Below, piece by piece: positions 15,233 through 40,449 of a DNA stretch of 64,000 nt. Origin of the DNA: an uncultured Planctomycetota bacterium (GTDB lineage: Bacteria; Planctomycetota; Phycisphaerae; Sedimentisphaerales; UBA12454); NCBI GenBank assembly GCA_903847315.1, contig CAINDG010000031.1:31435-95434 (forward strand), written 5' to 3'. The notes beneath the pieces were generated by a model. It saw only the letters and a program-made list of their open reading frames with translations. It had not been told where the DNA came from and did not search any database. How positions within the stretch are numbered: position 1 is the stretch's first letter; the number at the start of each line of letters is the position of its first letter. Made by a program: the position numbers and the translations under genes.

Positions 15233-15250
15233 TGAAAAAATTGAATACAG

Positions 15251-15301: not shown

Positions 15302-15336
15302 TTAAATTTTAAAATTAAAATTTAAGGACTCGAAAT

Positions 15337-16353: not shown

Positions 16354-16375
16354 TTAAAAAATTTTTAAATTTTTA

Positions 16376-24109: not shown

Positions 24110-24192
24110 CGCCTGATCTGTTTGGGGTTATATTCCAGCAGAAAATACATATTTCTCCTTTCGAGTTATCTTGAACAGGCGAACAGAGAATA

Positions 24193-24834
24193 TTAGGGGT
24201 ATATAGAATCAATACTGAATTTGCAATATGATACTCTTGTGAAAATCCGATAAAATTCTACTTTAAAAGGTTTCATCTGCCCCTTTTCTATTCGGCCAAT
24301 TTGAAAAGAATCAACATTGAGCAATTGATCTTTGTTATCATAAAGACTTACAGAAAAGGAGGCATTTTGATATGTTCGGGTATAATTATTTGTCACTTCA
24401 CCGACAACAGTTACAGTCATGTCGTCAATTCTGCTTATTTGAACATTTTTAAAGCTGAATTTTCCGGGAATATTATCAGTACTATTATTGGAAATGAATT
24501 TTTGTAGATTTTCATTTTTTTCAGTTAATGCATCATTTTCTTCAGCACCTTCTTTTGATATATCTTTCCAGCGTTCAACATCTTTTTTAAGAGAAAGGAT
24601 ATAGTCGGTCGATTCATTAAGCTTAATAGTTGATTTGTTAAGATTGTCAGCGGCCTTATTTAGTAATTGGTTACTTGCCTGTATTTTTTCATCGGCGGCT
24701 TTTTGAATAATTTCAATTTGCTGTTTAACTTTTTCTCTGTCTGTTCGGGTAAGCAAAGTGCCTGCCACAAATCCAGCAACTCCGGCGATTCCAGCGGATA
24801 TAATCACAGCAAGAATCAGGTGTTCTTTTTTCAC
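24193..24834 (-). CDS. Membrane-anchored coiled-coil protein with a C-terminal beta domain (FxLYD-like)
   Basis: 213 aa. N-terminal TM (LILAVIISAGIAGVAGFVAG), then a coiled coil. C-terminus ...VTVVGEVTNNYTRTYQNASFSVSLYDNKDQLL... resembles FxLYD-type domains. Confidence 0.45.
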   Translation of the reverse strand: MKKEHLILAVIISAGIAGVAGFVAGTLLTRTDREKVKQQIEIIQKAADEKIQASNQLLNKAADNLNKSTIKLNESTDYILSLKKDVERWKDISKEGAEENDALTEKNENLQKFISNNSTDNIPGKFSFKNVQISRIDDMTVTVVGEVTNNYTRTYQNASFSVSLYDNKDQLLNVDSFQIGRIEKGQMKPFKVEFYRIFTRVSYCKFSIDSIYP

Positions 24835-24842
24835 GTATTCCT

Positions 24843-25196
24843 CTAAGCTTTTTTGTGATATCGTTTAGGGCCAAACATTTCGACGAAAATCTTTTTTAAT
24901 TGGTCGTATTCATTTGGCAGCACAGTAATTTTTTCAACGCCAGATTCAGACATTAAACGCACTACTGTATTAATTGCTTGTTCTACATTTTCGGTTTGCG
25001 GAGGCGTTTCCTCAACAGATTTATTTGCTTCCTCTACCATTTTTTCACGCTCATCGGACTTCATTTTACTTAAAGCAATGACTCCGGCCGAGAGGAGAAT
25101 GTTGGTTCCTCCAAATTTATTGATTATTTGCTCTGCAACAATCTGCGCATGCGGAGTAAGAAGCTTTTTTATGGTTGATAGTTTTTTCTCGGCCAT
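24843..25196 (-). CDS. Hypothetical protein (first gene of the antisense cluster)
   Basis: Track ORF starts at TTG 25214; ATG 25196 (MAEKKLSTIKK...) is more likely. No recognisable motif. Confidence 0.35.
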   Translation of the reverse strand: MAEKKLSTIKKLLTPHAQIVAEQIINKFGGTNILLSAGVIALSKMKSDEREKMVEEANKSVEETPPQTENVEQAINTVVRLMSESGVEKITVLPNEYDQLKKIFVEMFGPKRYHKKA

Positions 25197-25318
25197 AAAT
25201 CGAATAGTATACAAATTTTAAATCAGTTGTAAATATTTATCATTATTATGGTTACAGGCCGCATAAATCTGATTTTATAAGAAATATCAGAAAAATACGA
25301 AAAAATCTGTTTTTTCAT

Positions 25319-25347
25319 TTGACAAAATATCCCAGCACTCGTAATAT
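25319..25347 (+). promoter_or_regulatory. Near-consensus sigma70-type promoter: TTGACA - 17 nt - TAATAT
   Basis: TTGACA at 25319-25324 and TAATAT at 25342-25347, with the spacer counted as 17 nt. Lies in a 290-bp AT-rich gap, divergent from the antisense cluster. Confidence 0.5.
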
Positions 25348-25505
25348 CGCCGGTGCAATAAGGATTAAGCAAAAAATGGCAAAGAAGAAAAATTAAGAAA
25401 GTCGCCGGAACTCAGCTTTGGCATCCAAACCTCTTATTTTCAATCTTGCCTATTTTAACATTTAAGAATTAAAAGTCAAGTAAAAAGTTCCGCCATAGTT
25501 CGGCT

Positions 25506-25997
25506 ATGGCGAGATCTCGCCCGCCCATCGGGGCAAGGCGGACAAGAAAAATCCGGCCAGCCACGAAGGCACAAAGACACGAAGTTTTTGGGTATTTTAT
25601 GGATGTGATAGCAAAGACGAAAGGGCACCTCGATGAGATAGTTGAAGCAACATCTCACGGGGCAAGACAGGGGATGGGAATAGAGGGATTGCCGGTCTGT
25701 CCGGCGGGGCATCTGGTTCTATGCAAGCCAGTGGTCAAGACCTTCCTGAAATGGCAGTTTCAGCGGTACGAGACGTTCTGCCATCACTGCGACCGCCGGT
25801 ACATCATTTATCGCTGGCGGTGGCTGGGTGATAAGGAATGGACAATCTGGCGATACAAAGCCTTTCCCCCGAATGAGATAGCCGAAGCGACATCTCACGG
25901 GGCAAGCCGGGATGATACGTTTCACATCGCTTACCGTCCACCAGTCGAGGTATTAAATAATATTCTTTTTATGCAGGAAATCGCCACGATGGGATAG
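25506..25997 (+). CDS. Hypothetical Arg-rich zinc-ribbon protein flanked by a repeated EI.EATSHGA motif (coding status uncertain)
   Basis: 163-aa ORF with CPAGHLVLC...CHHC. The region is GC-rich and stop-free on both strands, so it could instead be structured RNA. Confidence 0.3.
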   Translation: MARSRPPIGARRTRKIRPATKAQRHEVFGYFMDVIAKTKGHLDEIVEATSHGARQGMGIEGLPVCPAGHLVLCKPVVKTFLKWQFQRYETFCHHCDRRYIIYRWRWLGDKEWTIWRYKAFPPNEIAEATSHGASRDDTFHIAYRPPVEVLNNILFMQEIATMG

Positions 25998-26032
25998 CCG
26001 CGGGCAGCCCACATGGTAAAGGAGTTTTTAAA

Positions 26033-26479
26033 ATGAGAGCGATAAAATTCAGGGCTTGGGATAAACGCTTAAGCAAAATGCTTGATGCTTTAGGTTTATA
26101 TTTCAGGAGAGACGGTTCGTTAATGGACGTAGGGCTTAGGGACGATAGCGGCACAGTTGTTGATGTCAAAGGTGTAGAGATTATGCAATTTACCGGCTTG
26201 CTCGATAAAAACGGCAAAGAGATTTATGAGGGGGATATAGTAAGAATATTTCATAGAAAATGGTATTTAAATGCCCCGACAGAATGGAAAGTATTTAAAC
26301 TTAAATCCGGCAAAGAACAGTTGGGAGCCGTTTATTTTGACGAGAATGACTATAGATATCGCGCGAAGTGTTTAGAGAATTTTAGTCCGGTATTTGATAA
26401 TTGCGGAGAACACGGAACGAGACATTTTGAAGTAATTGGCAATATTTATGAAAATCCAGAATTGTTAAAATCAACGTAA
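26033..26479 (+). CDS. YopX family phage protein
   Basis: MRAIKFRAWDK...MQFTGLLDKNGKEIYEGDIV...FEVIGNIYENPELL is the classic YopX pattern. AAGGAG lies upstream of the ATG. Confidence 0.85.
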   Translation: MRAIKFRAWDKRLSKMLDALGLYFRRDGSLMDVGLRDDSGTVVDVKGVEIMQFTGLLDKNGKEIYEGDIVRIFHRKWYLNAPTEWKVFKLKSGKEQLGAVYFDENDYRYRAKCLENFSPVFDNCGEHGTRHFEVIGNIYENPELLKST

Positions 26480-26489
26480 TCAGCAAATA

Positions 26490-26541
26490 CTCCCTCTCGA
26501 TTTTGCTTTCAAGGCTGCAAAATCTGGTGATAAATCGGGAG
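26490..26541 (+). repeat. Nested-hairpin intergenic element, copy C
   Basis: CTCCCTCT cg ATTTTGC-tttcaaggct-GCAAAAT ctggtGATAAATCGGGAG, immediately after yopX. Confidence 0.85.
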
Positions 26542-26695
26542 TTCAAAACAAGGTTTTGAAGCTATTTTACAAGTTAATATGAGAGGGATATGGTTCCGAA
26601 GGATTGAATTTACAGCTTGACTTTTAAGGACAAAAGCGGTAAGCTATCGGCATTATGCTGTAGCTTGCGGCTTTTACGGAAGGGAGGATAGTGGT

Positions 26696-27616
26696 ATGAG
26701 AAAAAGCTGTAAGCTGAATCAACTTATTGCAAATTATCTGGCGATTAACAAAAGAATCGCGCCGTCAACGGCAGACCTGAATCAAAGGGCTTTCGATGAA
26801 TTGATAGATTTGGCCGGCGATATTGAGGCAGACAGGGTTTCGGCGGATGATGCCGAACTTTTTCAGGCGTATCTGATTGAAAAAAGACTGTCCAAAACGT
26901 CGGCGAATATTTTAATTTCATCGATAAATCCGGTTTTCAACTGGGCGGTTCGAAAGGGAACAATCGGGAAAAATCCTTTTGCGATTTTGAAAAAGTTTAA
27001 AATCACAAAACGTCCGATTACGATTTTCGAGACCGATGAGATTAAAAGGCTGCTGGAATGCTCGAATGATTTATGGAAGGCGAGGATACTGCTGGGACTG
27101 TCAACTCTGAGGCGAGGCGAAGTGCTGAATCTGACAATCAGGGACATAGATTTTGAAAACATGATTATCAGGGTAACGCCAAAAGACAAGACGGCCTATA
27201 CCTGGGCATGGCAGCCGAAGGATTGCGAGATGAGAATAGTGCCTTTGATTTCGCAGCTTGTTAATGTGTTTTTAAGACTCATCGAGAAGCTGCCGGATGG
27301 ACAGCCTTATGTTTGCTTGCTACCGCAGCGGTATCAATTTTTAAGAAGTAAAAACAACTTGAAATATCGCTGGCGAAGCAATCCGGATAATAATTTCGAG
27401 CGGAATTTCAGATTGATTTGCAAGAGGGCGATGATTAGCGGTAAGGTCTTTCACGATTTGCGAAAGACAGGGCTCACCTTACTGACTGGCGGGTTACGAC
27501 TGCAGGAAGTAAGGGATATTGGCGGTCATTCGAGTATTGAAACGACCGAAAAATATCTGGCGAATCGTAAAGACTGTTTGTCTCGAGCGCGTGAACTGAT
27601 AAGTAATGGCGTCTGA
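26696..27616 (+). CDS. int: Tyrosine recombinase / phage integrase
   Basis: 306 aa. Motifs RRGEVLNLTIRDID (Arg I), HDLRKTG (H-x-x-R) and GHSSIETTEKYL (His...Tyr nucleophile). GGAGG lies upstream. Sits adjacent to the att-type tRNA fragment. Confidence 0.9.
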   Translation: MRKSCKLNQLIANYLAINKRIAPSTADLNQRAFDELIDLAGDIEADRVSADDAELFQAYLIEKRLSKTSANILISSINPVFNWAVRKGTIGKNPFAILKKFKITKRPITIFETDEIKRLLECSNDLWKARILLGLSTLRRGEVLNLTIRDIDFENMIIRVTPKDKTAYTWAWQPKDCEMRIVPLISQLVNVFLRLIEKLPDGQPYVCLLPQRYQFLRSKNNLKYRWRSNPDNNFERNFRLICKRAMISGKVFHDLRKTGLTLLTGGLRLQEVRDIGGHSSIETTEKYLANRKDCLSRARELISNGV

Positions 27617-27632
27617 CGTTTTGTCAGGCGCC
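27608..27632 (+). terminator. 10-bp hairpin spanning the integrase stop codon
   Basis: GGCGTCTGAC-gtttt-GTCAGGCGCC (one G-U pair). It abuts the tRNA-like fragment and could be a terminator or an att arm structure. Confidence 0.4.
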
Positions 27633-27679
27633 CTTGCATGGCATGCAAGAGGTCGTGAGTCCGAGTCTCACTGGCTCCA
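27633..27679 (+). pseudogene. tRNA-Ala(GGC)-like 3' portion (anticodon arm to discriminator) without a 5' half; att site
   Basis: Anticodon arm CTTGC-ATGGCAT-GCAAG (U33, anticodon GGC, A37). Variable loop AGGTC. T arm GTGAG-TCCGAGT-CTCAC. Acceptor 3' strand TGGCTCC (U70 fits the Ala G3:U70 identity pair) plus A73. No matching GGAGCCA/D-arm upstream. The T loop has C where U55 is expected. Confidence 0.55.
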
Positions 27680-27687
27680 TTTGTTTT
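27635..27687 (+). repeat. Direct repeat copy 1 (53 bp, att-type)
   Basis: Hand alignment with 36582-36634 gives 51/53 identical. The only difference is CA (27669-27670) versus GG (36616-36617). Confidence 0.9.
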
Positions 27688-27733
27688 AAGTTCAAAAAAA
27701 AGTTTTTTTTCATTTCTCTATGAAGATTTTTTA

Positions 27734-28141
27734 ATGTCCGAGAAACCATTTCATCTGGCAGTTCGAGCTGTTATATTAGATAAGCAAAATCGATGTCTGC
27801 TGCTTCGACGGTCGAATGCGTGTCGGAGTTTTGTGGGGAAATGGGAATGGCCGGGCGGCAAAATTGATGATGGTGAAACGTTCGATGTGGCTTTACTGCG
27901 TGAGATTAACGAAGAGACTGGGCTGGAAATCGAACTTATAAACGTTATCGGAGCCTATAATATTGAAATGGCCCAGATACGTCTGGTAGTGTTGTGTATG
28001 GAAGCCAGGCTTGTAGGTGGAACGTTCAAGATAAGCGAAGAGCATGACAAGTATTCGTGGGTGTCTTTGACGGATTTGTCGAAATGGGATATGACGGCCG
28101 GGCTCAAGGAATTTGCCGAGTCTTATGCAGCAAAAAAATAA
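27734..28141 (+). CDS. NUDIX hydrolase
   Basis: Complete Nudix box GGKIDDGETFDVALLREINEETGL (G-x5-E-x7-R-E-U-x-E-E-x-G-U). 135 aa. Confidence 0.85.
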   Translation: MSEKPFHLAVRAVILDKQNRCLLLRRSNACRSFVGKWEWPGGKIDDGETFDVALLREINEETGLEIELINVIGAYNIEMAQIRLVVLCMEARLVGGTFKISEEHDKYSWVSLTDLSKWDMTAGLKEFAESYAAKK

Positions 28142-28154
28142 GGAGAAAATAAAC

Positions 28155-30692
28155 ATGGCTGAGAAAGAAGAACTTACGCCGAGTAAGCACAAAAAACAAA
28201 TAAAAGCCTATCGCAAGGTGTTCGACAGCTATAAAACCTACGCTGGGGTACTCAAACGAATTCTGGAAAACGCATGTAAAGTCTCCTTCCCGGATGCGTT
28301 TATACAATCTCGTCCCAAGAGTATTTCCAGCTTCGCCGAGAAAGCGGTGCGCAGATTCGACAAATACCCAGATGCTGTTAATCAGATGACGGATCTCTGT
28401 GGGGCTCGTGTGATAGTGCAGACCACCGAACAGGTCAAGGCCGTCCGCCAGTTCATTGAGGTAAACTTCCGCATCCACGAAAGCGATGAAAAGGGTATGT
28501 TGCTGGGTGAAAATAAGTTTGGTTATCGCGATATGCACTACATCGTCCAGTTACGTCCCGACCGCTGCAATGCTCTCGGGGTAAAGAAGAAAGAATGCAA
28601 ACAGATAGGCAACCGTAAAGCTGAGATACAGGTGCGGACATGGGTGCAACATGCCTGGGCTGATACGCTGCATGACCGCATATATAAGAACAATCTGAAA
28701 ATCCACCCTGATTTGGTGAGAACGGGTAACCTTCTGGCAGCGCTGATGGAAGAGGGAGATTGCACCTTTGACCGTCTCACCAATGAATTAGACGGCTTGA
28801 TTGCAAACTATACTGCATTCGCTACTAAAGAAGAAGTTAAGAAAAAGATAAAAATTCAGAAACTTATTCTTGATAATGAACCTGATAACGATAAGAAACC
28901 AGGATTATCGCTGAAACTTGCCCGTCTTTACGCGGCGTCTGGGAATCATTCTCGTGTAGTAAATCTGTTGGAACCGTACGCAGGTATTCGTGACGCCAAT
29001 CGCTGTGAGCTGCTTTTGATCCTCGGGAATAGTTTCTGCAGACTACATGGCACCTCACCATCATCAATTGAATACAAGCGGGGACTGCGATTTCTTGAAG
29101 AGTCACTGGACATTTGTGGATGCGAGGATGTTCCATTTGTTCCTCATGTTCGCAAACGTGAAAGCCTGTATGCTCGAGCACTGATGCGACTTGGCTGGGC
29201 TTTAGGGCGGATATCGGGTCAGGAACATAAAGCTCGCGAATATTACCATCAGGCGCATGAACACGAGCCTTCAAATCCTTACTATCTCGCAGAAATGCTG
29301 GGTTTTGAGATGCACTGTTTGCCTGCGGTTGATTTGCCGGCGAGCATGCGAACGATGATACGTGAGGCCATCAAGACTTGCAAACAACATGCCCTTGCCG
29401 GCATAGAATTGCCCTATGCATACTTTACGGCAGGGCGTTTGAGTTTATTATTGAAAATGGCTGATGACGCATTGGGCTATTATGCCCGCGGCATCCAGCA
29501 TTGCTTGGTAGGGAAACATTGTGTTCCAGCAGATATTTTCGATATCGAGGTTCAATGGCTGGTGCGGATCCATTTCGGCGTAAAGCCCTCGATTGAGTGC
29601 CAGCGAGTTATCGACCTCTTAACCATTAGCCTGCATGTTATGGCAGGTTCTAAATACAAGGATGCTAAATCATTACTATCACCTCCTATACTTATCATCG
29701 CCGGCGGTGCAGCAAATATCAATGCGGCCGCTGTAAAAAAAGTCCGTCCTCTGATTCGTACGGCATTGACGGATTTCCAAGGCACGGTCATTGCCGGCGG
29801 TACTAATGTAGGTGTGCCGGGTTGTGTCGGGGACGTGGCTCATGAACTTGCCAGGGGAGACAAAAAGCAGTTCAAGCTCATCGGTTATCTGCCCAAAAGA
29901 ATATCGGAATGTAAATACTACGACGAGATTATAAGAGTCGGCGATGCATTCGAGGCCGATCTGATACTCCGTAATTGGTCGGATATTCTCTCAAAAGGTA
30001 TCAAACCTCAGAATGTCCTGCTATTAGGTTTTGGTGGTGGGGCACTCAGTGCAGTCGAATACCGTATCGCTCTGGGGTTAGGTGCATCGGTAGGAGTTGT
30101 CATAGGTACAGGGGGTGCTGTCAAGGAACTGCTGAACGACCCTATGTGGTCAATACTGCCGAACTTCTATCCGTTGCCTTTCGATGCTAAGACCATTCAG
30201 GCCTTTATTCTACCGAGTGAACGAAAGTTTAAAAATCCTAAGTTGGAAGGTATGGCCAAGGAATTTCACGCTCGTTATGTGGCCGACAACACAAAAGACC
30301 TTCCAAGTAATCTCAAGCCTTGGGGTAAACTCAATGATAGCTATAAGAAAGCCAATTTAGAACAAGCTGCTCATGCCATCCAAATTCTTGAAGCCGCAGG
30401 TTTTAATGTTCGCAAAGCAAAAAAGCCGGTTATTTTCGACTATAGGAGATTTACCAAAAAGGAACTTGAGTTAATGGCCGAGTTGGAGCACGGCCGATGG
30501 AATGTCGAACGTCTGCGCGATGGTTGGCGTTACGGAAAACCTCGTGATGATGCAAAGAAAATCCATGATTGTCTTATCCCCTGGAATGAATTGCCAGACG
30601 GCTCTGAGGGTGTTCGTAAATTTGACCGCGATGCTGTACGTGCCTTTCCCGAGATACTCGCCAATGCCGGGTTAGAGATTTATAAAATCTGA
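28155..30692 (+). CDS. RelA/SpoT-homologue synthetase-only domain - TPR-like helical region - SLOG/LSDAT-like domain - RyR-like domain fusion protein
   Basis: ATG 28155 has AGGAG (28141-28145) overlapping the NUDIX stop; the track ORF starts at 28113. Synthetase motifs: SRPKSISSFAEK, TDLCGARVIV, GYRDMHYIV, EIQVRTWVQHAWADTLHDRIYK. No HD hydrolase domain. Gly-rich loops ILIIAGGAAN / VIAGGTNVGVPG / LLGFGGGALS / VIGTGGAV. C-terminus ELEHGRWNVERLRDGWRYG...IHDCLIPWNELP. Confidence 0.8.
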   Translation: MAEKEELTPSKHKKQIKAYRKVFDSYKTYAGVLKRILENACKVSFPDAFIQSRPKSISSFAEKAVRRFDKYPDAVNQMTDLCGARVIVQTTEQVKAVRQFIEVNFRIHESDEKGMLLGENKFGYRDMHYIVQLRPDRCNALGVKKKECKQIGNRKAEIQVRTWVQHAWADTLHDRIYKNNLKIHPDLVRTGNLLAALMEEGDCTFDRLTNELDGLIANYTAFATKEEVKKKIKIQKLILDNEPDNDKKPGLSLKLARLYAASGNHSRVVNLLEPYAGIRDANRCELLLILGNSFCRLHGTSPSSIEYKRGLRFLEESLDICGCEDVPFVPHVRKRESLYARALMRLGWALGRISGQEHKAREYYHQAHEHEPSNPYYLAEMLGFEMHCLPAVDLPASMRTMIREAIKTCKQHALAGIELPYAYFTAGRLSLLLKMADDALGYYARGIQHCLVGKHCVPADIFDIEVQWLVRIHFGVKPSIECQRVIDLLTISLHVMAGSKYKDAKSLLSPPILIIAGGAANINAAAVKKVRPLIRTALTDFQGTVIAGGTNVGVPGCVGDVAHELARGDKKQFKLIGYLPKRISECKYYDEIIRVGDAFEADLILRNWSDILSKGIKPQNVLLLGFGGGALSAVEYRIALGLGASVGVVIGTGGAVKELLNDPMWSILPNFYPLPFDAKTIQAFILPSERKFKNPKLEGMAKEFHARYVADNTKDLPSNLKPWGKLNDSYKKANLEQAAHAIQILEAAGFNVRKAKKPVIFDYRRFTKKELELMAELEHGRWNVERLRDGWRYGKPRDDAKKIHDCLIPWNELPDGSEGVRKFDRDAVRAFPEILANAGLEIYKI

Positions 30693-30871
30693 AATATTGA
30701 GTTATAATAACGCGCCAAATACGCGTCTTTATATCCTCTACTTTTTGCGACATGCAGGCGGAGCAAAAAGACTGAAAGGCGGTTTTTCCTGCATTGGGGA
30801 AATGCTGTTCGCAGGGCATATTCATAGGGTTATTGCCACTGAAATAGCGAAAAGATTTCAGATAATATGTA

Positions 30872-30900
30872 TTTCCTTAAGCGGGATATTCGTGTATAAT
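30872..30900 (+). promoter_or_regulatory. Candidate promoter for the TIR gene (TTTCCT - 17 nt - TATAAT)
   Basis: Perfect TATAAT at 30895-30900 but a weak -35. Lies in the 296-bp gap between the RSH and TIR genes. Confidence 0.3.
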
Positions 30901-30988
30901 ATATAGAGTAAGGTGAGAACTTAAACGGTGACTTTACTTGAGGTGATAGGAAATTGAAGATACCTGTGTGCGTACAAGGATATCATTA

Positions 30989-33361
30989 ATGGCTCATGAT
31001 GTATTCATCAGCTATTGCGAAGCAGATAAATCGACTGCAGAAGCAATTTGTTCTACCTTAGAGGCAAGAAATATACGTTGCTGGATTGCGCCAAGGGATG
31101 TTCCGCCCGGTAAGTGGGGACGGGCGGTTAACGATGCTGTTAGAAGCAGCAAGATTATGGTTCTTGTTTTTTCGTCTCACGCCAATAAATCCACCTATAC
31201 AGAAAAAGAAGTGGCGATAGCGGTCGAAAGCGGCGTGATGATAATTCCATTACGGATAGAAAATGTGCCCCCTCAAGGCGCTCTTGATTATTATTTAGCG
31301 GGCATACACTGGTTGGATGCCTTAACCCCGTCACTGGAAACTCATTTACGAAAGCTGGCGCGCGAAGTTGAGATTTACTTAAAACCGGATGTCGAACCCC
31401 AGCCGGAGAAAACCGGCTCTCCGTCCCCGCCACGAAAACCAAGGACCCGATGGGTTTTTGTGGCACGTCTTCTTGCCGGTTTGATTGTAGCCCTGTGTTT
31501 TTGCATTATTATTGTTGCCGCTTATTTTGGTATTCAGGCGATCATAATCAAGACCCCATTCGGGCATCCAATATTTCCCCCGCCTCCACCACCTGCGGTA
31601 GCTATAGAAAGTAATGTGCTGCCGGTGCAGGTAAATGAAAATCTTGCAAAAGACTGCCTTGAAACGGCAAAAGAATTAGCCAATAACGGTGATTTTTCCG
31701 GGGCGATAAAGGTTGTCGATGATTTTAAGACAAATCATCCTGATATTGTAAAAAATAATGATAGCAATACCCAAAATTTACTTGCCAAAAAGACCGAATG
31801 GGAAAAAGCGGAAGTTCAACAGCAACAGCAACAACAAAAGGAAAAGCTGATAGTAATGTTATTATCGCAGGCCAAAACATTTATGGAGCAAGACCTGCCG
31901 GATAAGGCTCTTGAGTCTGTAGCGGAGGCCTTAAAAATCGACTCTGAAAATGCACAAGCAAAACAGATGCACGATAGGTTGATTGCATTGAACGATAATA
32001 ATAAAGCCAAAGCAGAAACAGAGCAGCGTTTCAAGGCCTGTTCGGAAGCCGGCTTTGATTATGAGGCTCAGCGGAGTTGGCCGAAAGCTATAGAATCCTA
32101 CACCGGAGCACTTGTGATAAAGCCGGATGATAAAGTGATAAAAGATAGACTTGCGACCTGTCAGCACAATCTTTATTTCGCAAAGGCAGAAATCGCAGAG
32201 ACAGGGGGCAGGCTGAATGAGGCAATTGATAATTATGCCACGGCATTATCTTTCAAACAGGTCGCCTCAACGCAGACAAAGCTCGATGCCGCTAAAAAAG
32301 CCCGGCAGATAAAAATTGATGCTGAAAATAGAAAACATGAATATGATAAATGGTTTGCTAAAGCGCAGACTGCAGAAAAAGAAAAGGATTTATCAGCGGC
32401 AGTAACGTTTTATAAAAGGGCTCAGGAATATACTGAGGAATCACTTAAGGAAAAAATAGATTCATTAAACGACCAAATTGCCGACAAGGAAAATCAGGCT
32501 AAAATTGCTAAATTATTAGCTTATGCCAAGGCAAGAGACAATAAAGCGCAGGGCAAGGAAGCGTTAAAAACGCTGAATGAGATTCTTTCTTTGGATTCTG
32601 ATAATTCAGAAGCTATCGCGTTGAAGGATAAGATAAAAGGCTATTACGACATAAATGGCGGCGATGTTATAACTAACTCTATCGGAATGGGGTTTGCTTA
32701 TATCCCGGCCGGTAAATTTACAATGGGCAGCCCACTTAGTGAGGAGCGAAACTCTGATGAAGGTCTTCAGCGTGAAGTTAAAGTTGATAAAGGTTTTTAT
32801 ATGGGAGTATATGAAGTAACGCAGGGACAGTACAAAGCCGTTATGGGTGAAAATCCAAGCTATTTCAAAGGTGATAATTTTCCAGTGGAACAAGTAAGCT
32901 GGAACGATGCGAATGAATTTTGCAGGAAGTTAAGTCAAAAGGAAGGCAAAATTTACAGATTACCGACAGAAAAAGAATGGGAATACGCCTGCAGGGCCAA
33001 AACAGAAACTGCATTTAATAATGGTCAGAACGAATTAACAACAGTGCGGCAGATTTGCTGGTGCAGTTACGACGGGAAGTTGGGCAGTGCCAGACAGACG
33101 AAACCTGTCGGCAGTTGCGACAAAAATGCCTGGGGATTATACGATATGCATGGCAATGTCTGGGAGTGGTGCGGCGATTTATATACTATGTATCCCAATG
33201 GCACAGTAACAGATTTGCAAGGGACCGACAGCGGGCAGTGCCGTGTCATTCGCGGCGGCTCATGGTACGATATACCGAAAGACTGCAGGTCCGCAACTCG
33301 CAGCAAGATGAAACCTGATGGCAACAGTAATAAAATAGGATTTAGGGTTGTTTGTTTTTGA
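30989..33361 (+). CDS. TIR domain - single TM - coiled-coil/TPR-like region - FGE-sulfatase (SUMF1-like) domain protein
   Basis: ATG 30989 (MAHDVFISYCEADK...); the track ORF starts at GTG 30968. TIR about 30989-31330. TM WVFVARLLAGLIVALCFCIIIVAAYF (31451-31549), preceded by PRKPRTR. C-terminus (about 32665-33358) IPAGKFTMGSP...YEVTQGQY...VSWNDANEFC...LPTEKEWEYACRA...HGNVWEWC...RGGSW...GFRVV. Confidence 0.85.
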   Translation: MAHDVFISYCEADKSTAEAICSTLEARNIRCWIAPRDVPPGKWGRAVNDAVRSSKIMVLVFSSHANKSTYTEKEVAIAVESGVMIIPLRIENVPPQGALDYYLAGIHWLDALTPSLETHLRKLAREVEIYLKPDVEPQPEKTGSPSPPRKPRTRWVFVARLLAGLIVALCFCIIIVAAYFGIQAIIIKTPFGHPIFPPPPPPAVAIESNVLPVQVNENLAKDCLETAKELANNGDFSGAIKVVDDFKTNHPDIVKNNDSNTQNLLAKKTEWEKAEVQQQQQQQKEKLIVMLLSQAKTFMEQDLPDKALESVAEALKIDSENAQAKQMHDRLIALNDNNKAKAETEQRFKACSEAGFDYEAQRSWPKAIESYTGALVIKPDDKVIKDRLATCQHNLYFAKAEIAETGGRLNEAIDNYATALSFKQVASTQTKLDAAKKARQIKIDAENRKHEYDKWFAKAQTAEKEKDLSAAVTFYKRAQEYTEESLKEKIDSLNDQIADKENQAKIAKLLAYAKARDNKAQGKEALKTLNEILSLDSDNSEAIALKDKIKGYYDINGGDVITNSIGMGFAYIPAGKFTMGSPLSEERNSDEGLQREVKVDKGFYMGVYEVTQGQYKAVMGENPSYFKGDNFPVEQVSWNDANEFCRKLSQKEGKIYRLPTEKEWEYACRAKTETAFNNGQNELTTVRQICWCSYDGKLGSARQTKPVGSCDKNAWGLYDMHGNVWEWCGDLYTMYPNGTVTDLQGTDSGQCRVIRGGSWYDIPKDCRSATRSKMKPDGNSNKIGFRVVCF

Positions 33362-33427
33362 GACGGATTAAACCAAGACCGACAATAATGAACAGGAATA
33401 TTCGTTAATTTTTTAAGGGAATATTTT

Positions 33428-35254
33428 ATGAAGAGGATTTTTTTACTGACTATATGTTTTTTTATTGGTCTATCCCTTTTCGGCTGCGAGGCGCCGCAAA
33501 TGTGTCCACAGGCCGATGTATTCAAAAAACAGGGGAAATTAGAACAGGCAATTGGCGAATGTGAACAATGTCTAAAGGCGTCAACATCGAAAAGTAAGCA
33601 GCAGCAGATACAAAAGGATATTGACTCGCTGAAAGCCGAGATCGTTTCAAAAAGTCTTGAAGAAGCGGCATCGGTATTTAAGGGTGAGCAAACAATAGCT
33701 AACTATGAAAAAGCGATTCGTATTCTCAATGCCCAAAAGCAATATGACCAGGGGAGTGGCATTTCAGCACGTCTTGCCGACTATCGCAGGCAGATAGAAA
33801 ATCTGCGGGAACAAATAAACAAATTTCTGGAAACAGCCAAATTGGAGACGGCAAAAGCACAGTGGAGGGATGCTGTTCAGTCTGTCGGTCAGGCCCTGAA
33901 GTTAGATCCGGATGACAGTAGTATTGCATCACGGTTCGCAGGACTTATTGAAGAGCGTAACGAGTACTATAAACTGCGGATTAAAAGTGAATGTGATAAA
34001 AGAGACTATGTGGAGGCGTCTAAAGTATTAAAAAGCTTCGGCCAGGAGCAGCCGGCTCCTTCCGACCTGGTTTTGAAATCAATAGAGTCTCTGGTAAATG
34101 AAACTAAGGGACAAGCAGTACGAAGCGAGGTTGAGAAATTAATAGCAGATAAGAAATACTTTACCGCTTACAGCCGGATTCAAGAAACAGAAGTAAAAAA
34201 CTGTAAAGACTTACTTGAAGATGTCCGGCTTAAAGGAAGCGAATTTTATAAGAATTTGGCCTACAAGGAGAAAACCAATGTTAATAATTTTCACGCGTAT
34301 ATAGCGGCAGTCAAGGCTAAAATACTTAGTCCCGATAATAATGAAATTTTCATCCTGCATCGAGATATGACGGATATAGTCGATGATTCCATCTGGGTTA
34401 AAATTGGTATCGCTGAATTTAAAGCACCGACAGCAGAACTGGGAGCCGGAAGGGAATTTACCGGAATGCTCGTCAGTCATTTGGGGAAATTATTGCCGTA
34501 TGGAGTAAGAATCGACGAGCCGGAAAAAATAAAGTTTTCAGAAAATCGCGGAGCCCAGGAAGGCGAAGTCATTGTGCAGCTGGGTCAAAAACTTGGTATA
34601 TTCGGCGATGTTTCTACTTTAGAGGTCAACACACGCCGGGAGGAGTCGGAAAATACTATTATTGTTCCGTTAGGAGAAGAAGAATCGCCCAATCCGCAAT
34701 ATCAGCAGATGATGATGCTCTACGGTCGTGATACCAGCAAATGGCCATCGATACCGCCTGCGACCCTCAAGAAATCTACCACTACACTTGCAAAATACAA
34801 ACGCGGGAAACAGTTGATGGAAGGAAGAATGGTTGTTTCAGTTAGGCTTTATTCTGCTGCGTCAAATGCCTCTATTGGAAACGAAACCCTGTCGGCTCAG
34901 CTTGACTGTTCCGATACTTTCCAGGAAGGCGTCCAGGGCACCGATATTAAGGAAGATCCCCTTGAGATGCCCAAGACCGAGCTTCAGATGAAACAGGAAT
35001 TGAAGCAGAACATGGTCGAAAAAACATCAAAATGGATACTTGAACGCGACCTTGCCCTTAACCTTGGTTTTTTCCAATTGCGTCAGAAACATTATTATAA
35101 ACAGGCAGAAGACATAATAGGACGTCGAGAATATAACGAGGCAGTTAAGGTATTAGCACAGGGCTATCTGTATTGTCTTCGGGATAACATTCCTGAAAAT
35201 GATGAGTGGTTTCAGAAAATTCGCCAAAAGGTACTATATGAATTAACAGAATAG
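33428..35254 (+). CDS. Lipoprotein with N-terminal TPR-like helices and a C-terminal CsgG/LpoB-like beta region (function unknown)
   Basis: Signal peptide plus lipobox LSLFG-C (Cys codon 33485-33487). 66-nt gap after the TIR gene. The segment KIGIAEFKAPTAELGAGREFTGMLVSHL resembles periplasmic lipoprotein scaffold domains. Confidence 0.55.
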   Translation: MKRIFLLTICFFIGLSLFGCEAPQMCPQADVFKKQGKLEQAIGECEQCLKASTSKSKQQQIQKDIDSLKAEIVSKSLEEAASVFKGEQTIANYEKAIRILNAQKQYDQGSGISARLADYRRQIENLREQINKFLETAKLETAKAQWRDAVQSVGQALKLDPDDSSIASRFAGLIEERNEYYKLRIKSECDKRDYVEASKVLKSFGQEQPAPSDLVLKSIESLVNETKGQAVRSEVEKLIADKKYFTAYSRIQETEVKNCKDLLEDVRLKGSEFYKNLAYKEKTNVNNFHAYIAAVKAKILSPDNNEIFILHRDMTDIVDDSIWVKIGIAEFKAPTAELGAGREFTGMLVSHLGKLLPYGVRIDEPEKIKFSENRGAQEGEVIVQLGQKLGIFGDVSTLEVNTRREESENTIIVPLGEEESPNPQYQQMMMLYGRDTSKWPSIPPATLKKSTTTLAKYKRGKQLMEGRMVVSVRLYSAASNASIGNETLSAQLDCSDTFQEGVQGTDIKEDPLEMPKTELQMKQELKQNMVEKTSKWILERDLALNLGFFQLRQKHYYKQAEDIIGRREYNEAVKVLAQGYLYCLRDNIPENDEWFQKIRQKVLYELTE

Positions 35255-35360
35255 TGTAAGTAATACTTGCGCCATAGCCGGCTGAGCTAACAGCTTGAAA
35301 AAATTAAGATTGTGTTTTTAAACGGTGATTGTCAAGCACAAAGGGAGCTCTCGGTGATAC

Positions 35361-35389
35361 TTGCTTCCTGGTGCTGATATTGATATAAT
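35361..35389 (+). promoter_or_regulatory. Extended -10 promoter: TTGCTT - 17 nt (ending TGa) - TATAAT
   Basis: TTGCTT at 35361-35366. TGATATAAT at 35381-35389 matches TGnTATAAT. The track ORF TTG start coincides with the -35, which argues for the downstream ATG. Confidence 0.55.
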
Positions 35390-35477
35390 ACGAGCAACTG
35401 GAGAAAACAGTGTTGATGGAACGAGGCAATGGCTGGGCAAAGAGTTGGTAATCAAAGATGTAGGAGAGAAACCTTTT

Positions 35478-36524
35478 ATGAGTAATGAAGGCAATATTAA
35501 ATTACCATACGATTACGATATGCATGACAATGATGCGGAGATTCCATCGGCTGAGCCGCTTAAAGAAGCTCTTGTGTACTGCAAAGATAATATCTTGGAA
35601 GCCTATCGCAAATATGACAGTTCGGCTCTACTTAATCAGAAATACCATCGGTTACTTGCCGTTATCGCATCTGTGTGTGGTACAATTGCAGTATTGTTTG
35701 CAATAATGCAACTCTCAGGTTTTTTCCTGACTTCATGGCCGATGTGGGTCGAGATAGGAGCTGCCACAATAGCTTTTTTAGCTGTGATGGCAGGATTAAT
35801 TTGGTCTCAACAAGCTAAATGGCTTTTGAATCGTCACAAAGCTGAGCGATATAGAATGCTCAAGTTTCTTTCGATTATTCATCCTGATTTGTGGATGAAT
35901 AATATAGGCCGATGGAAAGATAAATTTACACACAAAATAAAAGAAATCGAACAAATGACACCACGATTGCTTCGCGACTGGGCCGAAGGGGATCGATTGT
36001 CCGAAATGCCACTATTGGAAAAATGTGTATTCGATGAAACTACAATTCGTGCCTTGGTTGATTATTACTTGGATAAACGTCTCGAAATTCAGAAAACTTA
36101 TTTTAAAAGCCGAGAAATGCGGAACGAAAAACTGGATCATTACACGCGAAATCTGCCATATTTACTTTATTTTTTAAGCGTAATGGCTGTTTTTTGGCAT
36201 TTTATAGTGGATATTTTTTCCAGCCACAGTCATGGGATGCATTCTGCCAGTGTGATGCTTATCATTCTTGCAGCTTCGTTTCCTGTATTGGCAGCGGGGA
36301 TTCGTACTCTCCGATCTACCTATGAGTTTGCTCGCAGTGCCGCTCTTTTTCAGGCAAAATATGCGGCACTAGACCGTATGTTTGTAACGATTACAGATGA
36401 AATTAAACAGTTGCCAATCAACAAAGAGACAATACTAACTAACTTGTGGCAATGTGAGCAATTTCTCAAGGCGGAGCATCGAGAGTGGTTGCGTTTGATG
36501 ATGGAAGCAGATTGGTTTATTTAA
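35478..36524 (+). CDS. Tandem 2TM membrane protein, SLATT/DUF4231-like (candidate pore-forming effector)
   Basis: ATG 35478, with AGGAG at 35462-35466. Two modules, each an amphipathic helix plus two TM helices plus a basic helix. Module 1: YHRLLAVIASVCGTIAVLFAIM / VEIGAATIAFLAVMAGLIW / QQAKWLLNRHKAERYRMLKF. Module 2: LPYLLYFLSVMAVFWHFIV / ASVMLIILAASFPVLAAGI / RTLRSTYEFARSAALFQAKY. Confidence 0.5.
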   Translation: MSNEGNIKLPYDYDMHDNDAEIPSAEPLKEALVYCKDNILEAYRKYDSSALLNQKYHRLLAVIASVCGTIAVLFAIMQLSGFFLTSWPMWVEIGAATIAFLAVMAGLIWSQQAKWLLNRHKAERYRMLKFLSIIHPDLWMNNIGRWKDKFTHKIKEIEQMTPRLLRDWAEGDRLSEMPLLEKCVFDETTIRALVDYYLDKRLEIQKTYFKSREMRNEKLDHYTRNLPYLLYFLSVMAVFWHFIVDIFSSHSHGMHSASVMLIILAASFPVLAAGIRTLRSTYEFARSAALFQAKYAALDRMFVTITDEIKQLPINKETILTNLWQCEQFLKAEHREWLRLMMEADWFI

Positions 36525-36581
36525 ATCTGGTATTCAATATAAGTAAAAAATTGAAATGACAACTAATATAGAGTAAGTTGA

Positions 36582-36634
36582 TGCATGGCATGCAAGAGGT
36601 CGTGAGTCCGAGTCTGGCTGGCTCCATTTGTTTT
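36582..36634 (+). repeat. Direct repeat copy 2 (53 bp, att-type; T-stem pairing disrupted)
   Basis: 51/53 identical to 27635-27687. The upstream sequence (GTTGA) does not complete the anticodon stem, so identity starts at the repeat boundary. Confidence 0.9.
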
Positions 36635-36746: not shown

Positions 36747-38459
36747 ATGAATGATTTTAGCAGACAAAAATTTGCAAAATTGGGGGTTTTTCCCGCACTT
36801 TTATTTATTGGTTTCTTATTAATGACAGGTTCTATTTTGTCCGGCGGTACAAAACAGAACACAGCAGCTGTAACCGATTTGCCGTTTGTTGTGCCGGATA
36901 TAAAGGAACCAAAATTTCCGGACAAAACTTTCCGCATCACAGATTATGGCGCTATAGGCGATGGTCATACAAAAAACACCCAAGCCTTCGCCAGGACAAT
37001 CAAGGCTTGTACAGATGCCGGCGGGGGAACCGTGTTGGTGCCCGCAGGACTGTGGCTGACCGGCCCAATCCAGCTTAAGAGCAATCTGAATCTGCATCTG
37101 GAAAAAGGAGCGGTTATCCTATTCAGCGGCGATTTTGAGGATTACCCTTTAATCAAAAGGATATGGGAAGGCTCGGCGGCGGTGCGCTGTATATCGCCGC
37201 TGTTCGGCGAAAATCTTAAAAATATCGCTATAACAGGCGCCGGAATTATTGACGGCAGCGGGCAGGCGTGGCGGCCCGTTAAAAAATACAAAATGACAGA
37301 GAACCAATGGAAAAATCTGCTTGCGTCCGGCGGAGTGACGGACAGTGCAGGAGGAGTCTGGTATCCATCGAAGGAAGCGATGAATGGGCTAAGAACCGTT
37401 GCCGAACTTGATAAGCGGGGCGCAGATGTTAATGAATACGCTGCTGCTCGCCAGTTTTTGCGTCCGGTTATGGTTGGGTTCGTTCAGTGCAAAAACGTGC
37501 TGCTTGACGGACCGACTTTTCAGAATTCGCCCGCGTGGAATATTCATCCGCTGATGTGCGAGGATGTGATTATCCGCAATATCAACATCAGAAATCCCTG
37601 GTATGCTCAAAACGGAGACGGGCTGGATGTGGAATCCTGTCGTAATGTTATCGTTAATGACTGCCGGTTCGATGTCGGCGATGACGCTATATGTATGAAA
37701 TCTGGCAAGGATAAATACGGCCGAATGAGAGGCAAGCCTACTGAGAATATTGCTATTTCAGATTGCGTTGTCTATCACGGGCACGGCGGCTTTACCGTCG
37801 GCAGCGAAATGTCCGGCGGGGTTCGCAATATTTACGTTCGCAATTGCGATTTTCTCGGCACTGATGTCGGACTTAGGTTCAAAACCACCCGCGGACGCGG
37901 CGGCATCGTGGAAAATATTTTTATCCGGGATATTTATATGAAAGATATTCCCACTGACGTCATTCAGTTTAGTATGTATTATGGAGGCAAAACTCCCGTT
38001 CTTGATGAAGATGATGCGACAGACAGCAATTCCATACAGGCTGTTCCTGCCGTAACCGAAGAAACCCCGAAGTTTCAGAATATTTATATGAGAAATATTG
38101 TCTGCGATGGCGCCAACAGGGCTGTTTATATGCAGGGGCTGCCTGAAATGCCGATTCAGAAGATAAATTTGGATGATGTTGTAATTTCTGCCGCGAATGG
38201 CGTAACCTGCATAGACGCCAATGATATAAAATTCAAAAATGTCAAAATAATAACCGCTAAATCTCCTGTCTTTGAATTATATAACAGCAGAAACTTTGTT
38301 TTCGAAGGCGTAAATCTTCTTGACTCCAATGGAGTTTTCATAAAACTGGACGGCAGCAAAACAAAAGCAATCCATTTAAAAGGCGTTGATAAATCTCAAG
38401 TCGATAAAAAGATTCAGCTCGGCAAAAATGTCAAATCAGACACTATTATAGCAGAATAA
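36747..38459 (+). CDS. Glycoside hydrolase family 28 (polygalacturonase / exo-galacturonosidase-like)
   Basis: Likely start ATG 36747 (MNDFSRQKF... followed by a signal/anchor). Motifs ITDYGAIGDGHTKNTQAF, NGDGLD, DVGDDAICMKSG, GHGGFTVGSE, LRFKTTRGRGG. Confidence 0.9.
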   Translation: MNDFSRQKFAKLGVFPALLFIGFLLMTGSILSGGTKQNTAAVTDLPFVVPDIKEPKFPDKTFRITDYGAIGDGHTKNTQAFARTIKACTDAGGGTVLVPAGLWLTGPIQLKSNLNLHLEKGAVILFSGDFEDYPLIKRIWEGSAAVRCISPLFGENLKNIAITGAGIIDGSGQAWRPVKKYKMTENQWKNLLASGGVTDSAGGVWYPSKEAMNGLRTVAELDKRGADVNEYAAARQFLRPVMVGFVQCKNVLLDGPTFQNSPAWNIHPLMCEDVIIRNINIRNPWYAQNGDGLDVESCRNVIVNDCRFDVGDDAICMKSGKDKYGRMRGKPTENIAISDCVVYHGHGGFTVGSEMSGGVRNIYVRNCDFLGTDVGLRFKTTRGRGGIVENIFIRDIYMKDIPTDVIQFSMYYGGKTPVLDEDDATDSNSIQAVPAVTEETPKFQNIYMRNIVCDGANRAVYMQGLPEMPIQKINLDDVVISAANGVTCIDANDIKFKNVKIITAKSPVFELYNSRNFVFEGVNLLDSNGVFIKLDGSKTKAIHLKGVDKSQVDKKIQLGKNVKSDTIIAE

Positions 38460-38461
38460 TC

Positions 38462-40426: not shown

Positions 40427-40449
40427 AAATATTATTCCTTATAGTTTTA

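What the first reader, a model, noticed from the sequence alone, without database searches (positions are those of the whole stretch)
27608..36634. Duplicated tRNA-Ala-like att sequence brackets an integrase-less island next to the prophage
Immediately after the integrase stop and hairpin lies a 47-nt sequence that folds as the 3' two-thirds of a tRNA-Ala(GGC). It has an anticodon arm, an AGGTC variable loop, a T arm, and an acceptor 3' strand with U70 and A73. It has no 5' half.

A 53-bp block that starts inside this fragment's anticodon stem and runs 8 nt past its 3' end (27635-27687) recurs at 36582-36634, with only one dinucleotide change that breaks the T stem.

This is the signature of site-specific integration into a tRNA 3' end occurring twice, giving tRNA - prophage - DR - island - DR. 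The alternative is a prophage cargo region retained between an old and a new att.

The island has no recombinase, so it may depend on the neighbouring phage integrase, as a satellite or piggy-back element would. An A8-G-T8 tract (27694-27710) follows copy 1 directly.
Basis: partly seen in the sequence, partly recalled or inferred. Interest (0 to 1): 0.65.

Follow-up and report, generated by a model that had tools for sequence, protein, structure and literature searches.

The report
Prophage attR plus decayed tRNA-Ala island
A temperate phage of a lake Phycisphaerae bacterium sits in a tRNA-Ala gene next to an older 8.9-kb recombinase-free insertion at the same site that carries predicted anti-phage genes; this is a familiar "tandem insertion at a tRNA" layout, not a new kind of element.

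Summary
A 53-bp direct repeat (27635-27687 / 36582-36634, 51/53 identical, none expected by chance) brackets an 8.9-kb segment. It is part of a 47-nt copy of the 3' two-thirds of tRNA-Ala(GGC), with no 5' half anywhere in the window.

New here: integrase relatives at 87% and 68% identity carry the same layout (int stop, hairpin, tRNA-Ala 3' part) in the unintegrated attP form, followed by phage early genes. Copy 1 is therefore the prophage's attR. This Xer-like integrase lineage targets tRNA-Ala(GGC) from the anticodon stem onward.

The island has five co-directional genes and no recombinase:
- NUDIX
- RelA/SpoT-SLOG-RyR
- TIR-TPR-FGE
- a lipoprotein
- a SLATT-like membrane protein

None of them occurs in the related phages.

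Most likely an older element inserted at the same tRNA and decayed (CIME-like), and the phage arrived later. I found no evidence for dependence on the phage integrase: no circular junction and no satellite genes.

The one contig that seemed to show "tRNA-island without phage" is an assembly chimera with a Burkholderiales gltX. The intact tRNA and third repeat (about 15.5 kb left of the window) could not be reached. This is an ordinary architecture in an under-studied phylum.

The parts
1..27632 (+). Right-hand ~27.6 kb of a temperate phage: lambda-type portal 120-1595, structural and tail genes including 1010-aa and 1476-aa proteins, YopX 26033-26479, integrase, P arm. The prophage continues left of the window.
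   Evidence: Pfam. Gene order large tail protein / minus-strand small genes / int is conserved in L027-L030. A 17.8-kb contig of the same phage extends ~15.5 kb left of the window with ParB, methylase and GpA terminase.
26696..27616 (+). 306-aa Xer-like tyrosine integrase with a SAM-like N-terminal domain and a catalytic domain. No separate arm-binding domain was detected.
   Evidence: PF00589 / PF13102. phrog_1 integrase, E 7e-42. Catalytic R139, K163, H253, R256, H278, Y287 are present in the alignment with 6 homologues.
27608..27632 (+). Hairpin GGCGTCTGAC-GTTTT-GTCAGGCGCC overlapping the int stop codon. It is the phage-side (P) arm next to the core.
   Evidence: Fold. Conserved in L027-L032 (GGGCGTCTGACCGTTTGTAAGGCGCC) and partly in L026.
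27633..27679 (+). 47-nt 3' two-thirds of tRNA-Ala(GGC), from the anticodon stem to discriminator A73. This is the core of the prophage attR.
   Evidence: The same segment follows int in attP of related phages.
27635..27687 (+). Direct repeat copy 1 (T stem intact). It runs 8 nt past the tRNA end (TTTGTTTT).
27694..27710 (.). A8-G-T8 tract at the island's left edge. Contig L006 departs from the window just left of it: its homology begins at 27692.
27688..36581 (+). 8.9-kb island between the repeats: five co-directional genes and no recombinase.
27734..28141 (+). NUDIX hydrolase (135 aa).
   Evidence: PF00293, E 1e-23. PADLOC candidate PDC-S07, E 1e-24.
28155..30692 (+). 845-aa protein with a RelA/SpoT-type nucleotide pyrophosphokinase domain, a SLOG domain and a RyR domain.
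   Evidence: Pfam. PADLOC PDC-S33. PDB hits to small alarmone synthetases RelQ/YjbM and to RyR repeats, weak hit to CapRel 7ztb.
30989..33361 (+). 790-aa TIR-TPR-FGE-sulfatase (FGS) protein. The longest ORF starts at 30968.
   Evidence: Pfam. PDB. Gene call.
33428..35254 (+). 608-aa predicted lipoprotein (MKRIFLLTICFFIGLSLFGC...). It has no family match and is not a recombinase.
35361..36524 (+). 387-aa membrane protein with a SLATT-like domain.
   Evidence: NCBIfam SLATT_1, E 7.5e-7, below cutoff. Weak DUF4231. TM segments visible in the translation.
36582..36634 (+). Direct repeat copy 2: a decayed tRNA-Ala 3' fragment in which CA->GG breaks the T stem. Inferred attR of the island.
36747..41694 (.). 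Host flank: two GH28 pectinase genes and a hexuronate-type MFS transporter. Syntenic with another Phycisphaerae MAG.
   Evidence: L019 positions 9934-14856 match window 41760-36850 at 78% nt identity.

Best explanation
Two separate insertions lie in the same tRNA-Ala(GGC) gene of a freshwater Phycisphaerae (Planctomycetota) bacterium.

(1) Shown. The window holds the right 27.6 kb of a temperate phage of about 43 kb. Its 306-aa Xer-like tyrosine integrase has its attP immediately 3' of the int stop. The attP is a hairpin followed by a copy of tRNA-Ala(GGC) from the anticodon stem to the discriminator base.

Inferred. Strand exchange occurs in or next to the anticodon loop, which is flanked by the 7-bp inverted repeat CTTGCAT/ATGCAAG. 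Integration rebuilds the tRNA at the far (left) prophage end with the phage-borne 3' part. The displaced host 3' part is left next to int. That displaced part is repeat copy 1, the prophage attR.

(2) Inferred. The 8.9 kb between the repeats already lay downstream of the tRNA. It came from an older site-specific insertion whose displaced tRNA 3' end is copy 2. Copy 2 is no longer under selection and has decayed: two substitutions break the T stem. That element now has no recombinase, either through decay or because it always relied on one supplied in trans. It matches the definition of a CIME-like remnant.

Its cargo is a co-directional set of predicted nucleotide-signalling conflict or defence genes: NUDIX, RelA/SpoT-SLOG-RyR, TIR-TPR-FGS, a lipoprotein and a SLATT-like membrane protein. 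These are expected to act in abortive-infection-type immunity, not in mobility.
For: - The repeat is real and non-random.
- The fragment is a genuine tRNA-Ala 3' part.
- Int relatives at 87% (L026) and 68% (L027-L032) carry int-stop / hairpin / CTTGCATGGCATGCAAGAGGTCGCAAGTTCGAATC[C/T]TGTTGGCTCCA. A conserved P' arm and early genes (ParB, DNA methylase) follow.
- The same early-gene set lies left of the window in a 17.8-kb contig of this phage. Contig arithmetic puts that contig's left end ~43.1 kb from copy 1. Related contigs are 43.5 and 42.8 kb long.
- Int has all catalytic residues.
- T stems of the window copy and of the phage attPs differ by compensatory changes (GTGAG/CTCAC versus GCAAG/CTTGT). 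The window T arm therefore derives from a structurally constrained tRNA and is not this phage lineage's attP copy.
- Copy 2 begins at TGCATGG, 2 nt inside the phage core start CTTGCATGG.
- No island gene has a homologue in the phage relatives.
- The island has no recombinase.
- A MAG at 78% nt identity shares the GH28-GH28-MFS flank but lacks the island and repeat.
- Weak support for a phage-free state: L012 comes from a sample with no int or portal contig listed, and it starts with the tRNA-type bases GAGCGC instead of the phage P-arm GCGCCC.
- Tandem arrays with decayed, integrase-less members are described as common (PMC5704250, read).
Against: - The intact tRNA-Ala and third repeat at the left prophage end were not seen. 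They lie outside the window and all routes to that DNA failed.
- No empty-site, phage-only or clean island-only genome was found.
- The island is not compositionally foreign. Its tetranucleotide correlation with the host flank is 0.90-0.93, and its GC is 43.5% against 45.0%.
- The related MAG has no tRNA at the corresponding place, so it is not a true empty site.
- Contig L006 (sample ERZ27229617) joins the island from 27692 onward, at 99.97% identity over 3.3 kb, to 128 nt of unrelated sequence with no repeat. This is unexplained.
- Both repeat copies have C55 in the T loop, which is unusual for a working tRNA.
Confidence: 0.6

Rival explanations
1. Cis-mobilisable or satellite reading. The island keeps functional att sites and is excised or moved by the neighbouring phage's integrase. 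It would move either alone (copy 1 x copy 2) or together with the phage (left att x copy 2).
For: - Both repeats keep the anticodon-arm palindrome plus the whole 3' part of the core.
- The integrase is a short Xer-like enzyme with no detected arm-binding domain, so it might need only core sites.
- Accretion and cis-mobilisation of integrase-less elements are documented for ICE/CIME tandems (PMC5704250).
Against: - No contig shows an island circle junction (36581-repeat-27688) or a phage-plus-island junction.
- There are no satellite hallmark genes: no primase or replicase, no packaging or capsid-redirecting genes.
- The island side of copy 2 has no similarity to the conserved P-arm hairpin and lacks the first two core bases.
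- Copy 2 has already diverged.
Confidence: 0.12
2. One composite prophage. The island is phage cargo (a moron or defence region), the true right end is copy 2, and copy 1 is an internal relic of an earlier att.
For: - The island is physically contiguous with int in every int-carrying contig recovered.
- Island composition resembles the phage as much as the host.
- Prophages often carry defence genes near att sites (general knowledge).
Against: - In three related phage lineages (L026, L027-L032, L046) attP lies immediately after int and is followed by early genes.
- None of the island genes occurs in L026-L032, the only relatives searched for them.
- A prophage of ~43 kb ending at copy 1 matches the relatives' contig sizes.
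Confidence: 0.1
3. The island is native chromosome (a variable defence locus downstream of tRNA-Ala). Copy 2 would be a stray tRNA fragment from an unrelated duplication or an aborted phage event, not the end of an inserted element.
For: - Composition is host-like.
- L006 shows the NUDIX-RelA cassette with a different left neighbour.
- A homologue of the SLOG-RyR part sits in a different conflict-gene neighbourhood (NACHT-TPR, beta-CASP) in L033, as expected for shuffling defence loci.
Against: - Copy 2 is truncated in the anticodon stem, 2 nt from where the integrase-type core begins. It also shares 8 nt beyond the tRNA end with copy 1. This is hard to get without site-specific recombination.
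- The island is absent next to the conserved GH28 flank in the related MAG.
Confidence: 0.1

Closest known systems
Temperate phages and islands that integrate into tRNA genes at the anticodon-arm sublocation, with attP carrying the tRNA's 3' part (Williams 2002 classification; cited from my own knowledge)
   Same: A tyrosine integrase sits next to attP. attP holds the tRNA sequence from the anticodon stem to the 3' end. A displaced 3' fragment is left as a direct repeat. IMG/VR contig UViG_3300036790_000178 shows the textbook form: an intact tRNA-Ala(GGC) (L038) plus a 5'-truncated fragment (L040).
   Different: The integrase is a short 306-aa Xer-like protein whose gene ends inside the P-arm hairpin. 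The host is a Phycisphaerae. The intact tRNA end was not seen here.
CIME (cis-mobilisable element) in tandem accretion with a functional integrative element, as described for Streptococcus ICESt1/ICESt3 (PMC5704250)
   Same: An element that has lost, or lacks, integration and transfer genes but keeps attL and attR. It lies in tandem at the 3' end of a tRNA gene with a functional element of similar site specificity.
   Different: The partner is a phage, not an ICE or IME. Nothing shows that the island derives from an ICE or IME. Cis-mobilisation is untested. The att copy is partly decayed.
Phage satellites (P4-like, PICI, cfPICI, PLE)
   Same: A small element next to or near a helper prophage that carries defence-type cargo.
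   Different: It has no integrase, replication, regulatory or packaging-hijack genes. It fails the defining features.
Nucleotide-signalling conflict systems with RelA/SpoT, NUDIX, SLOG, TIR and SLATT domains (Burroughs et al. 2015 as cited in PMC7159879); toxSAS/CapRel-type RelA-SpoT toxins
   Same: The same domain vocabulary is present: a nucleotide synthetase, a NUDIX hydrolase, a TIR domain, and a SLATT protein of the kind predicted to form a pore. FGS domains are noted in planctomycete systems. There are PADLOC candidate hits PDC-S07 and PDC-S33.
   Different: There is no match to an experimentally defined system. The RelA/SpoT domain is closer to small alarmone synthetases than to CapRel. 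The five-gene set was not found as a unit elsewhere.

Membership tests
tRNA-targeting temperate phage (tyrosine integrase, anticodon-arm att) | A tyrosine recombinase with intact catalytic residues next to the att site | tested here: met
   PF00589 and phrog_1. R139/K163/H253/R256/H278/Y287 are conserved. The int stop lies 17 nt before the core.
tRNA-targeting temperate phage (tyrosine integrase, anticodon-arm att) | attP of the phage lineage contains the tRNA 3' part | tested here: met
   L026 (int 87%) and L027-L032 (int 68%) have int-hairpin-tRNA-Ala 3' part-P' arm-early genes. This was shown for relatives, not for this phage's own circle.
tRNA-targeting temperate phage (tyrosine integrase, anticodon-arm att) | An intact tRNA gene plus a repeat copy at the opposite prophage end | not testable with these tools
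   The left end is ~15.5 kb outside the window. The contigs that cover it have no DNA on file. The genome, metagenome and viral scans gave nothing usable.
tRNA-linked genomic island | Flanked by direct repeats derived from the tRNA 3' end | tested here: met
tRNA-linked genomic island | Encodes its own integrase | tested here: not met
   Pfam, NCBIfam, PADLOC and PHROGs scans of all five proteins find no recombinase or transposase. The only unassigned protein is a lipoprotein. ORFs fill the island, leaving no room for a pseudogene.
tRNA-linked genomic island | Absent from the same site in related genomes | tested here: inconclusive
   L019 (78% nt identity) shares the GH28 flank and lacks the island and repeat. 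It also has no tRNA there, and its contig ends 1 kb further on.
tRNA-linked genomic island | Composition differs from the host | tested here: not met
   Tetranucleotide correlation with the host is 0.90-0.93. GC is 43.5% against 45.0%.
CIME (cis-mobilisable element) | Retains attL and attR but lacks integration and transfer genes | tested here: met
   Definition taken from PMC5704250.
CIME (cis-mobilisable element) | Excised or mobilised in cis by the adjacent element's integrase | not testable with these tools
   This needs induction plus junction PCR or read-level data. No circular or composite junction appears among the contigs recovered.
Phage satellite (P4-like / PICI / PLE) | Own integrase, replication module and helper-exploitation genes | tested here: not met
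   None of these functions is found in the five island genes.
Defined anti-phage defence system | Matches the gene set of a validated system | tested here: inconclusive
   There are only candidate single-gene PADLOC models (PDC-S07, PDC-S33) and a weak TIR hit. SLATT_1 is below its cutoff.

The most novel reading that the evidence does not exclude
The 8.9-kb recombinase-free defence island is a functional hitch-hiker. Its two tRNA-Ala att copies would still be substrates for the neighbouring phage's small Xer-like integrase. The island would then excise with, or be moved by, the phage. That would make it a phage-driven counterpart of ICE/CIME accretion-mobilisation, spreading a RelA/SpoT-NUDIX-TIR-SLATT immunity cassette in Planctomycetota.
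Probability: 0.1. Interest if true: 0.55.

Novelty: new member of a known kind. Interest (0 to 1): 0.3.

Why it matters
The main value is for annotation. The analysis fixes the right boundary of a ~43-kb Phycisphaerae prophage at 27687. It identifies the attachment site of a small, poorly sampled integrase lineage, with about 22 homologues in 5.8 billion proteins, as tRNA-Ala(GGC). It also marks an adjacent 8.9-kb predicted defence island as a separate, older insertion.

Temperate phages and mobile islands of Planctomycetota are little studied. The cargo is a RelA/SpoT-SLOG-RyR protein with NUDIX, TIR-TPR-FGS and SLATT partners, and it is a reasonable candidate for testing as an anti-phage system.

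The architecture itself is well known. The work also carries a practical warning: short metagenome contigs that join across conserved tRNA sequence can fake "island-only" states.

Tried and rejected
1. The genome-collection scan for the repeat's T-arm gave one hit, L005: gltX, an "intact" tRNA-Ala, then the island. It first looked like the phage-free state. I rejected it as a cross-organism assembly chimera for these reasons:
- Its GltX is Burkholderiales: 99% to P0001 and ~76% to Limnohabitans.
- GC is 50% against 45% for the window.
- Tetranucleotide correlation with the window is 0.36, against at least 0.89 among window parts.
- A 206-kb contig of that organism stops inside the tRNA anticodon arm.
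- The acceptor stem of the L005 "tRNA" has a G5xG68 clash.

2. Scans for the repeat found nothing in JGI metagenomes or in IMG/VR. An IMG/VR search for the integrase also found nothing.

3. Exact-protein look-ups around the portal, integrase, NUDIX, SLATT-like and GH28 genes returned only contigs colinear with the window, or contigs broken at the repeat. The long contigs had no DNA on file. The 845-aa protein is not on record in exactly this sequence.

4. I tried to reach the left att by fishing for the window phage's left-end genes with concatenated early proteins of L026. It returned one irrelevant hit.

5. The 128-nt head of L006 matched nothing in the window, the loci or IMG/VR.

6. I looked for a conserved P'-arm motif of related phages inside the window, as a sign of an old prophage remnant. 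There were no matches.

7. A 45%-identical integrase (L046) has a different tRNA-like att. Site specificity is therefore not uniform across the wider family.

8. The idea that the unassigned 608-aa protein is a hidden recombinase was rejected. It has a lipoprotein signal peptide and no family or PDB match.


Full report
**Observation**

- Positions 27635-27687 and 36582-36634 form a 53-bp direct repeat with 51/53 identity. The single difference is CA->GG.
- A 33-nt core occurs exactly twice, with none expected in shuffled sequence.
- Sensitive searches find no third copy and no tRNA 5' half in the 64 kb.
- The 47 nt at 27633-27679 read as anticodon arm, variable loop, T arm and acceptor 3' strand of tRNA-Ala(GGC).
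- Genuine tRNA-Ala(GGC) genes with the complementary 5' strand GGGGCCA and an identical anticodon arm exist in IMG/VR loci.
- Joining that 5' half to copy 1 gives a perfect cloverleaf with G3:U70. Copy 2 has a damaged T stem.
- On its own the fragment scores only 18.8 bits with the Rfam tRNA model (gathering score 29).
- Both copies have C instead of U at T-loop position 55.

**Organism and setting**

- A 90%-identity cluster of the neighbouring MFS transporter contains a protein named Phycisphaerae bacterium.
- All near-identical contigs come from stratified-lake metagenomes.
- Left of the repeat is phage DNA: a lambda-type portal, long tail proteins, YopX and a 306-aa tyrosine integrase with all catalytic residues.
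- Right of copy 2 are pectin-utilisation genes that are syntenic, at 78% nucleotide identity, with another Phycisphaerae MAG.

**What copy 1 is**

The integrase has few relatives, 22 at E<=1e-20. For two lineages I fetched the DNA: L026 at 87% identity and L027-L032 at 68%. In each, the integrase stop is followed by three things:
- a hairpin homologous to 27608-27632;
- the sequence CTTGCATGGCATGCAAGAGGTCGCAAGTTCGAATC[C/T]TGTTGGCTCCA, which is the same tRNA-Ala(GGC) 3' part with a canonical T loop;
- a conserved arm and phage early genes such as ParB and a DNA methylase.

That is the unintegrated attP arrangement. A 17.8-kb contig of the window's own phage shows the same early genes (ParB, methylase, GpA terminase) to the left of the portal.

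The geometry is therefore: tRNA 5' half-core-P' arm-early genes-late genes-int-P arm-core-host. Copy 1 is the prophage attR.

By contig arithmetic the 17.8-kb contig ends about 43.1 kb from copy 1. Related contigs are 43.5 and 42.8 kb long. This suggests, by inference only, that the contig breaks at the left att.

The anticodon stem supplies a 7-bp inverted repeat around the loop. I take that to be the core binding and exchange region (inference). The window's T stem differs from the relatives' by compensatory changes, so it comes from a structurally constrained tRNA and is not the phage lineage's attP copy.

**What the island is**

The 8.9 kb between the repeats holds five co-directional genes:
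- a NUDIX hydrolase;
- an 845-aa RelA/SpoT-SLOG-RyR protein;
- a TIR-TPR-FGE-sulfatase protein;
- a 608-aa lipoprotein with no family match;
- a SLATT-like membrane protein.

No recombinase, transposase, replication or packaging function is present, and the ORFs leave no space for a pseudogene. None of the five has a homologue in the related phages.

A relative of the SLOG-RyR part sits beside a NACHT-TPR protein and a beta-CASP nuclease in another metagenome contig. This fits the shuffling "conflict system" neighbourhoods described for these domains (PMC7159879). The cargo is therefore best read as candidate anti-phage immunity genes. That is inference from domain content. PADLOC gives only candidate-model hits.

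**How the repeat pair arose**

Copy 2 starts at TGCATGG, 2 nt inside the point where the phage core starts. It shares with copy 1 all of the tRNA 3' part plus 8 nt beyond it. Truncation at that point is the footprint of an integrase crossover in the anticodon arm.

The simplest history has three steps:
1. An older element inserted into tRNA-Ala and displaced the original 3' end to 36582-36634.
2. The element lost, or never had, its recombinase.
3. The phage inserted into the rebuilt tRNA and displaced a second 3' end to 27633-27687.

The opposite order, with the island inserting into the phage's attR, gives the same map and cannot be excluded. Such tandems with a decayed member are described as the usual case for tRNA-targeting elements. 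An integrase-less member that keeps attL and attR is called a CIME (PMC5704250).

**Evidence on population states, and a trap**

The only genome-collection hit to the repeat, L005, shows gltX, an "intact" tRNA-Ala and then the island. It is a chimera:
- The gltX part is Burkholderiales.
- It has a different GC and tetranucleotide signature.
- The true 206-kb contig of that organism stops in the anticodon arm.
- The acceptor stem of the hybrid does not pair.

Weak hints of a phage-free strain remain. L012 begins with six tRNA-type bases rather than the phage P arm. It comes from a sample with no integrase or portal contig among those listed.

L006 comes from another such sample. It joins the island from 27692, just before the A8-G-T8 tract, to 128 nt of unmatched sequence with no repeat. 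The right junction in that sample is normal. I cannot explain L006. It could be another chimera, an insertion or a deletion variant.

No contig shows an island circle, a phage-only state or an empty site.

**Verdict**

The structural interpretation, two insertions at one tRNA-Ala, is the best-supported reading (about 0.6). Its phage half is now well grounded. The island half rests on the repeat geometry.

The dependence of the island on the phage integrase is unsupported (about 0.1). The decisive piece, the intact tRNA plus third repeat left of the window, could not be examined.

The architecture is a known kind in a little-studied phylum, so interest is modest.

Noticed in passing
window 15175-15239, 15245-15309, 26484-26548: A ~65-nt structured repeat occurs three times in the prophage: twice in tandem between structural genes and once just upstream of int. 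The outer stem (ACCCCC/GGGGGU versus CUCCC/GGGAG) and the inner stem (GAGUUUUGCC/GGCAAAACUC versus UAAUUUUGCC/GGCAAAAUUA versus GAUUUUGC/GCAAAAUC) change in a compensatory way around a conserved loop CUCAAGG. Fold z-scores are -3.4, -3.6 and -1.7. There is no Rfam match. It may be a phage regulatory RNA or a protein-binding site.
   Followed up: partly
L006 1-128, joined to window 27692 onward: This contig from sample ERZ27229617 is 99.97% identical to the island over 3.3 kb. Left of the A8-G-T8 tract it has 128 nt of sequence that matches nothing. On the minus strand, ATG plus the A8GT8 tract would start a signal-peptide-like 33-aa ORF (MKKNFFLILLLIFPLVCFG...). It is unexplained: a chimera, an insertion or an alternative left boundary of the cassette.
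   Followed up: partly
L005 (CAIPII010000209.1) and L015 1-299: Short public metagenome or MAG contigs are chimeric. L005 fuses Burkholderiales gltX and a tRNA-Ala 5' half to this Phycisphaerae island through the conserved tRNA sequence, and it sits in a deposited Burkholderiales MAG. L015 joins 299 nt of unrelated glycosyltransferase / ABC-like sequence to window 40898.
   Followed up: yes
L046 10900-10990: A 45%-identical integrase in a 42.8-kb phage contig has the same int-att-early-gene layout. The sequence after int looks like part of a different tRNA (GGGGCGTGGCGCAGTTTGGATAGCGCGCGTGACTGGGGGTCA). Target choice therefore appears to shift within this integrase family.
   Followed up: no
window 20055-20107, 20274-20326, 21675-21727 and 25633-25671 / 25873-25911: There are diverged internal repeats inside the 1476-aa tail protein gene and inside the 163-aa ORF 25506-25997 (families D2 and D4). 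They are probably repeated protein modules.
   Followed up: no
L033 1-7526: A 54%-identical relative of the SLOG-RyR part of the island protein is followed by a 1425-aa DUF4062-NACHT-TPR STAND protein and a beta-CASP metallo-beta-lactamase nuclease. This is a different predicted conflict-system neighbourhood.
   Followed up: partly
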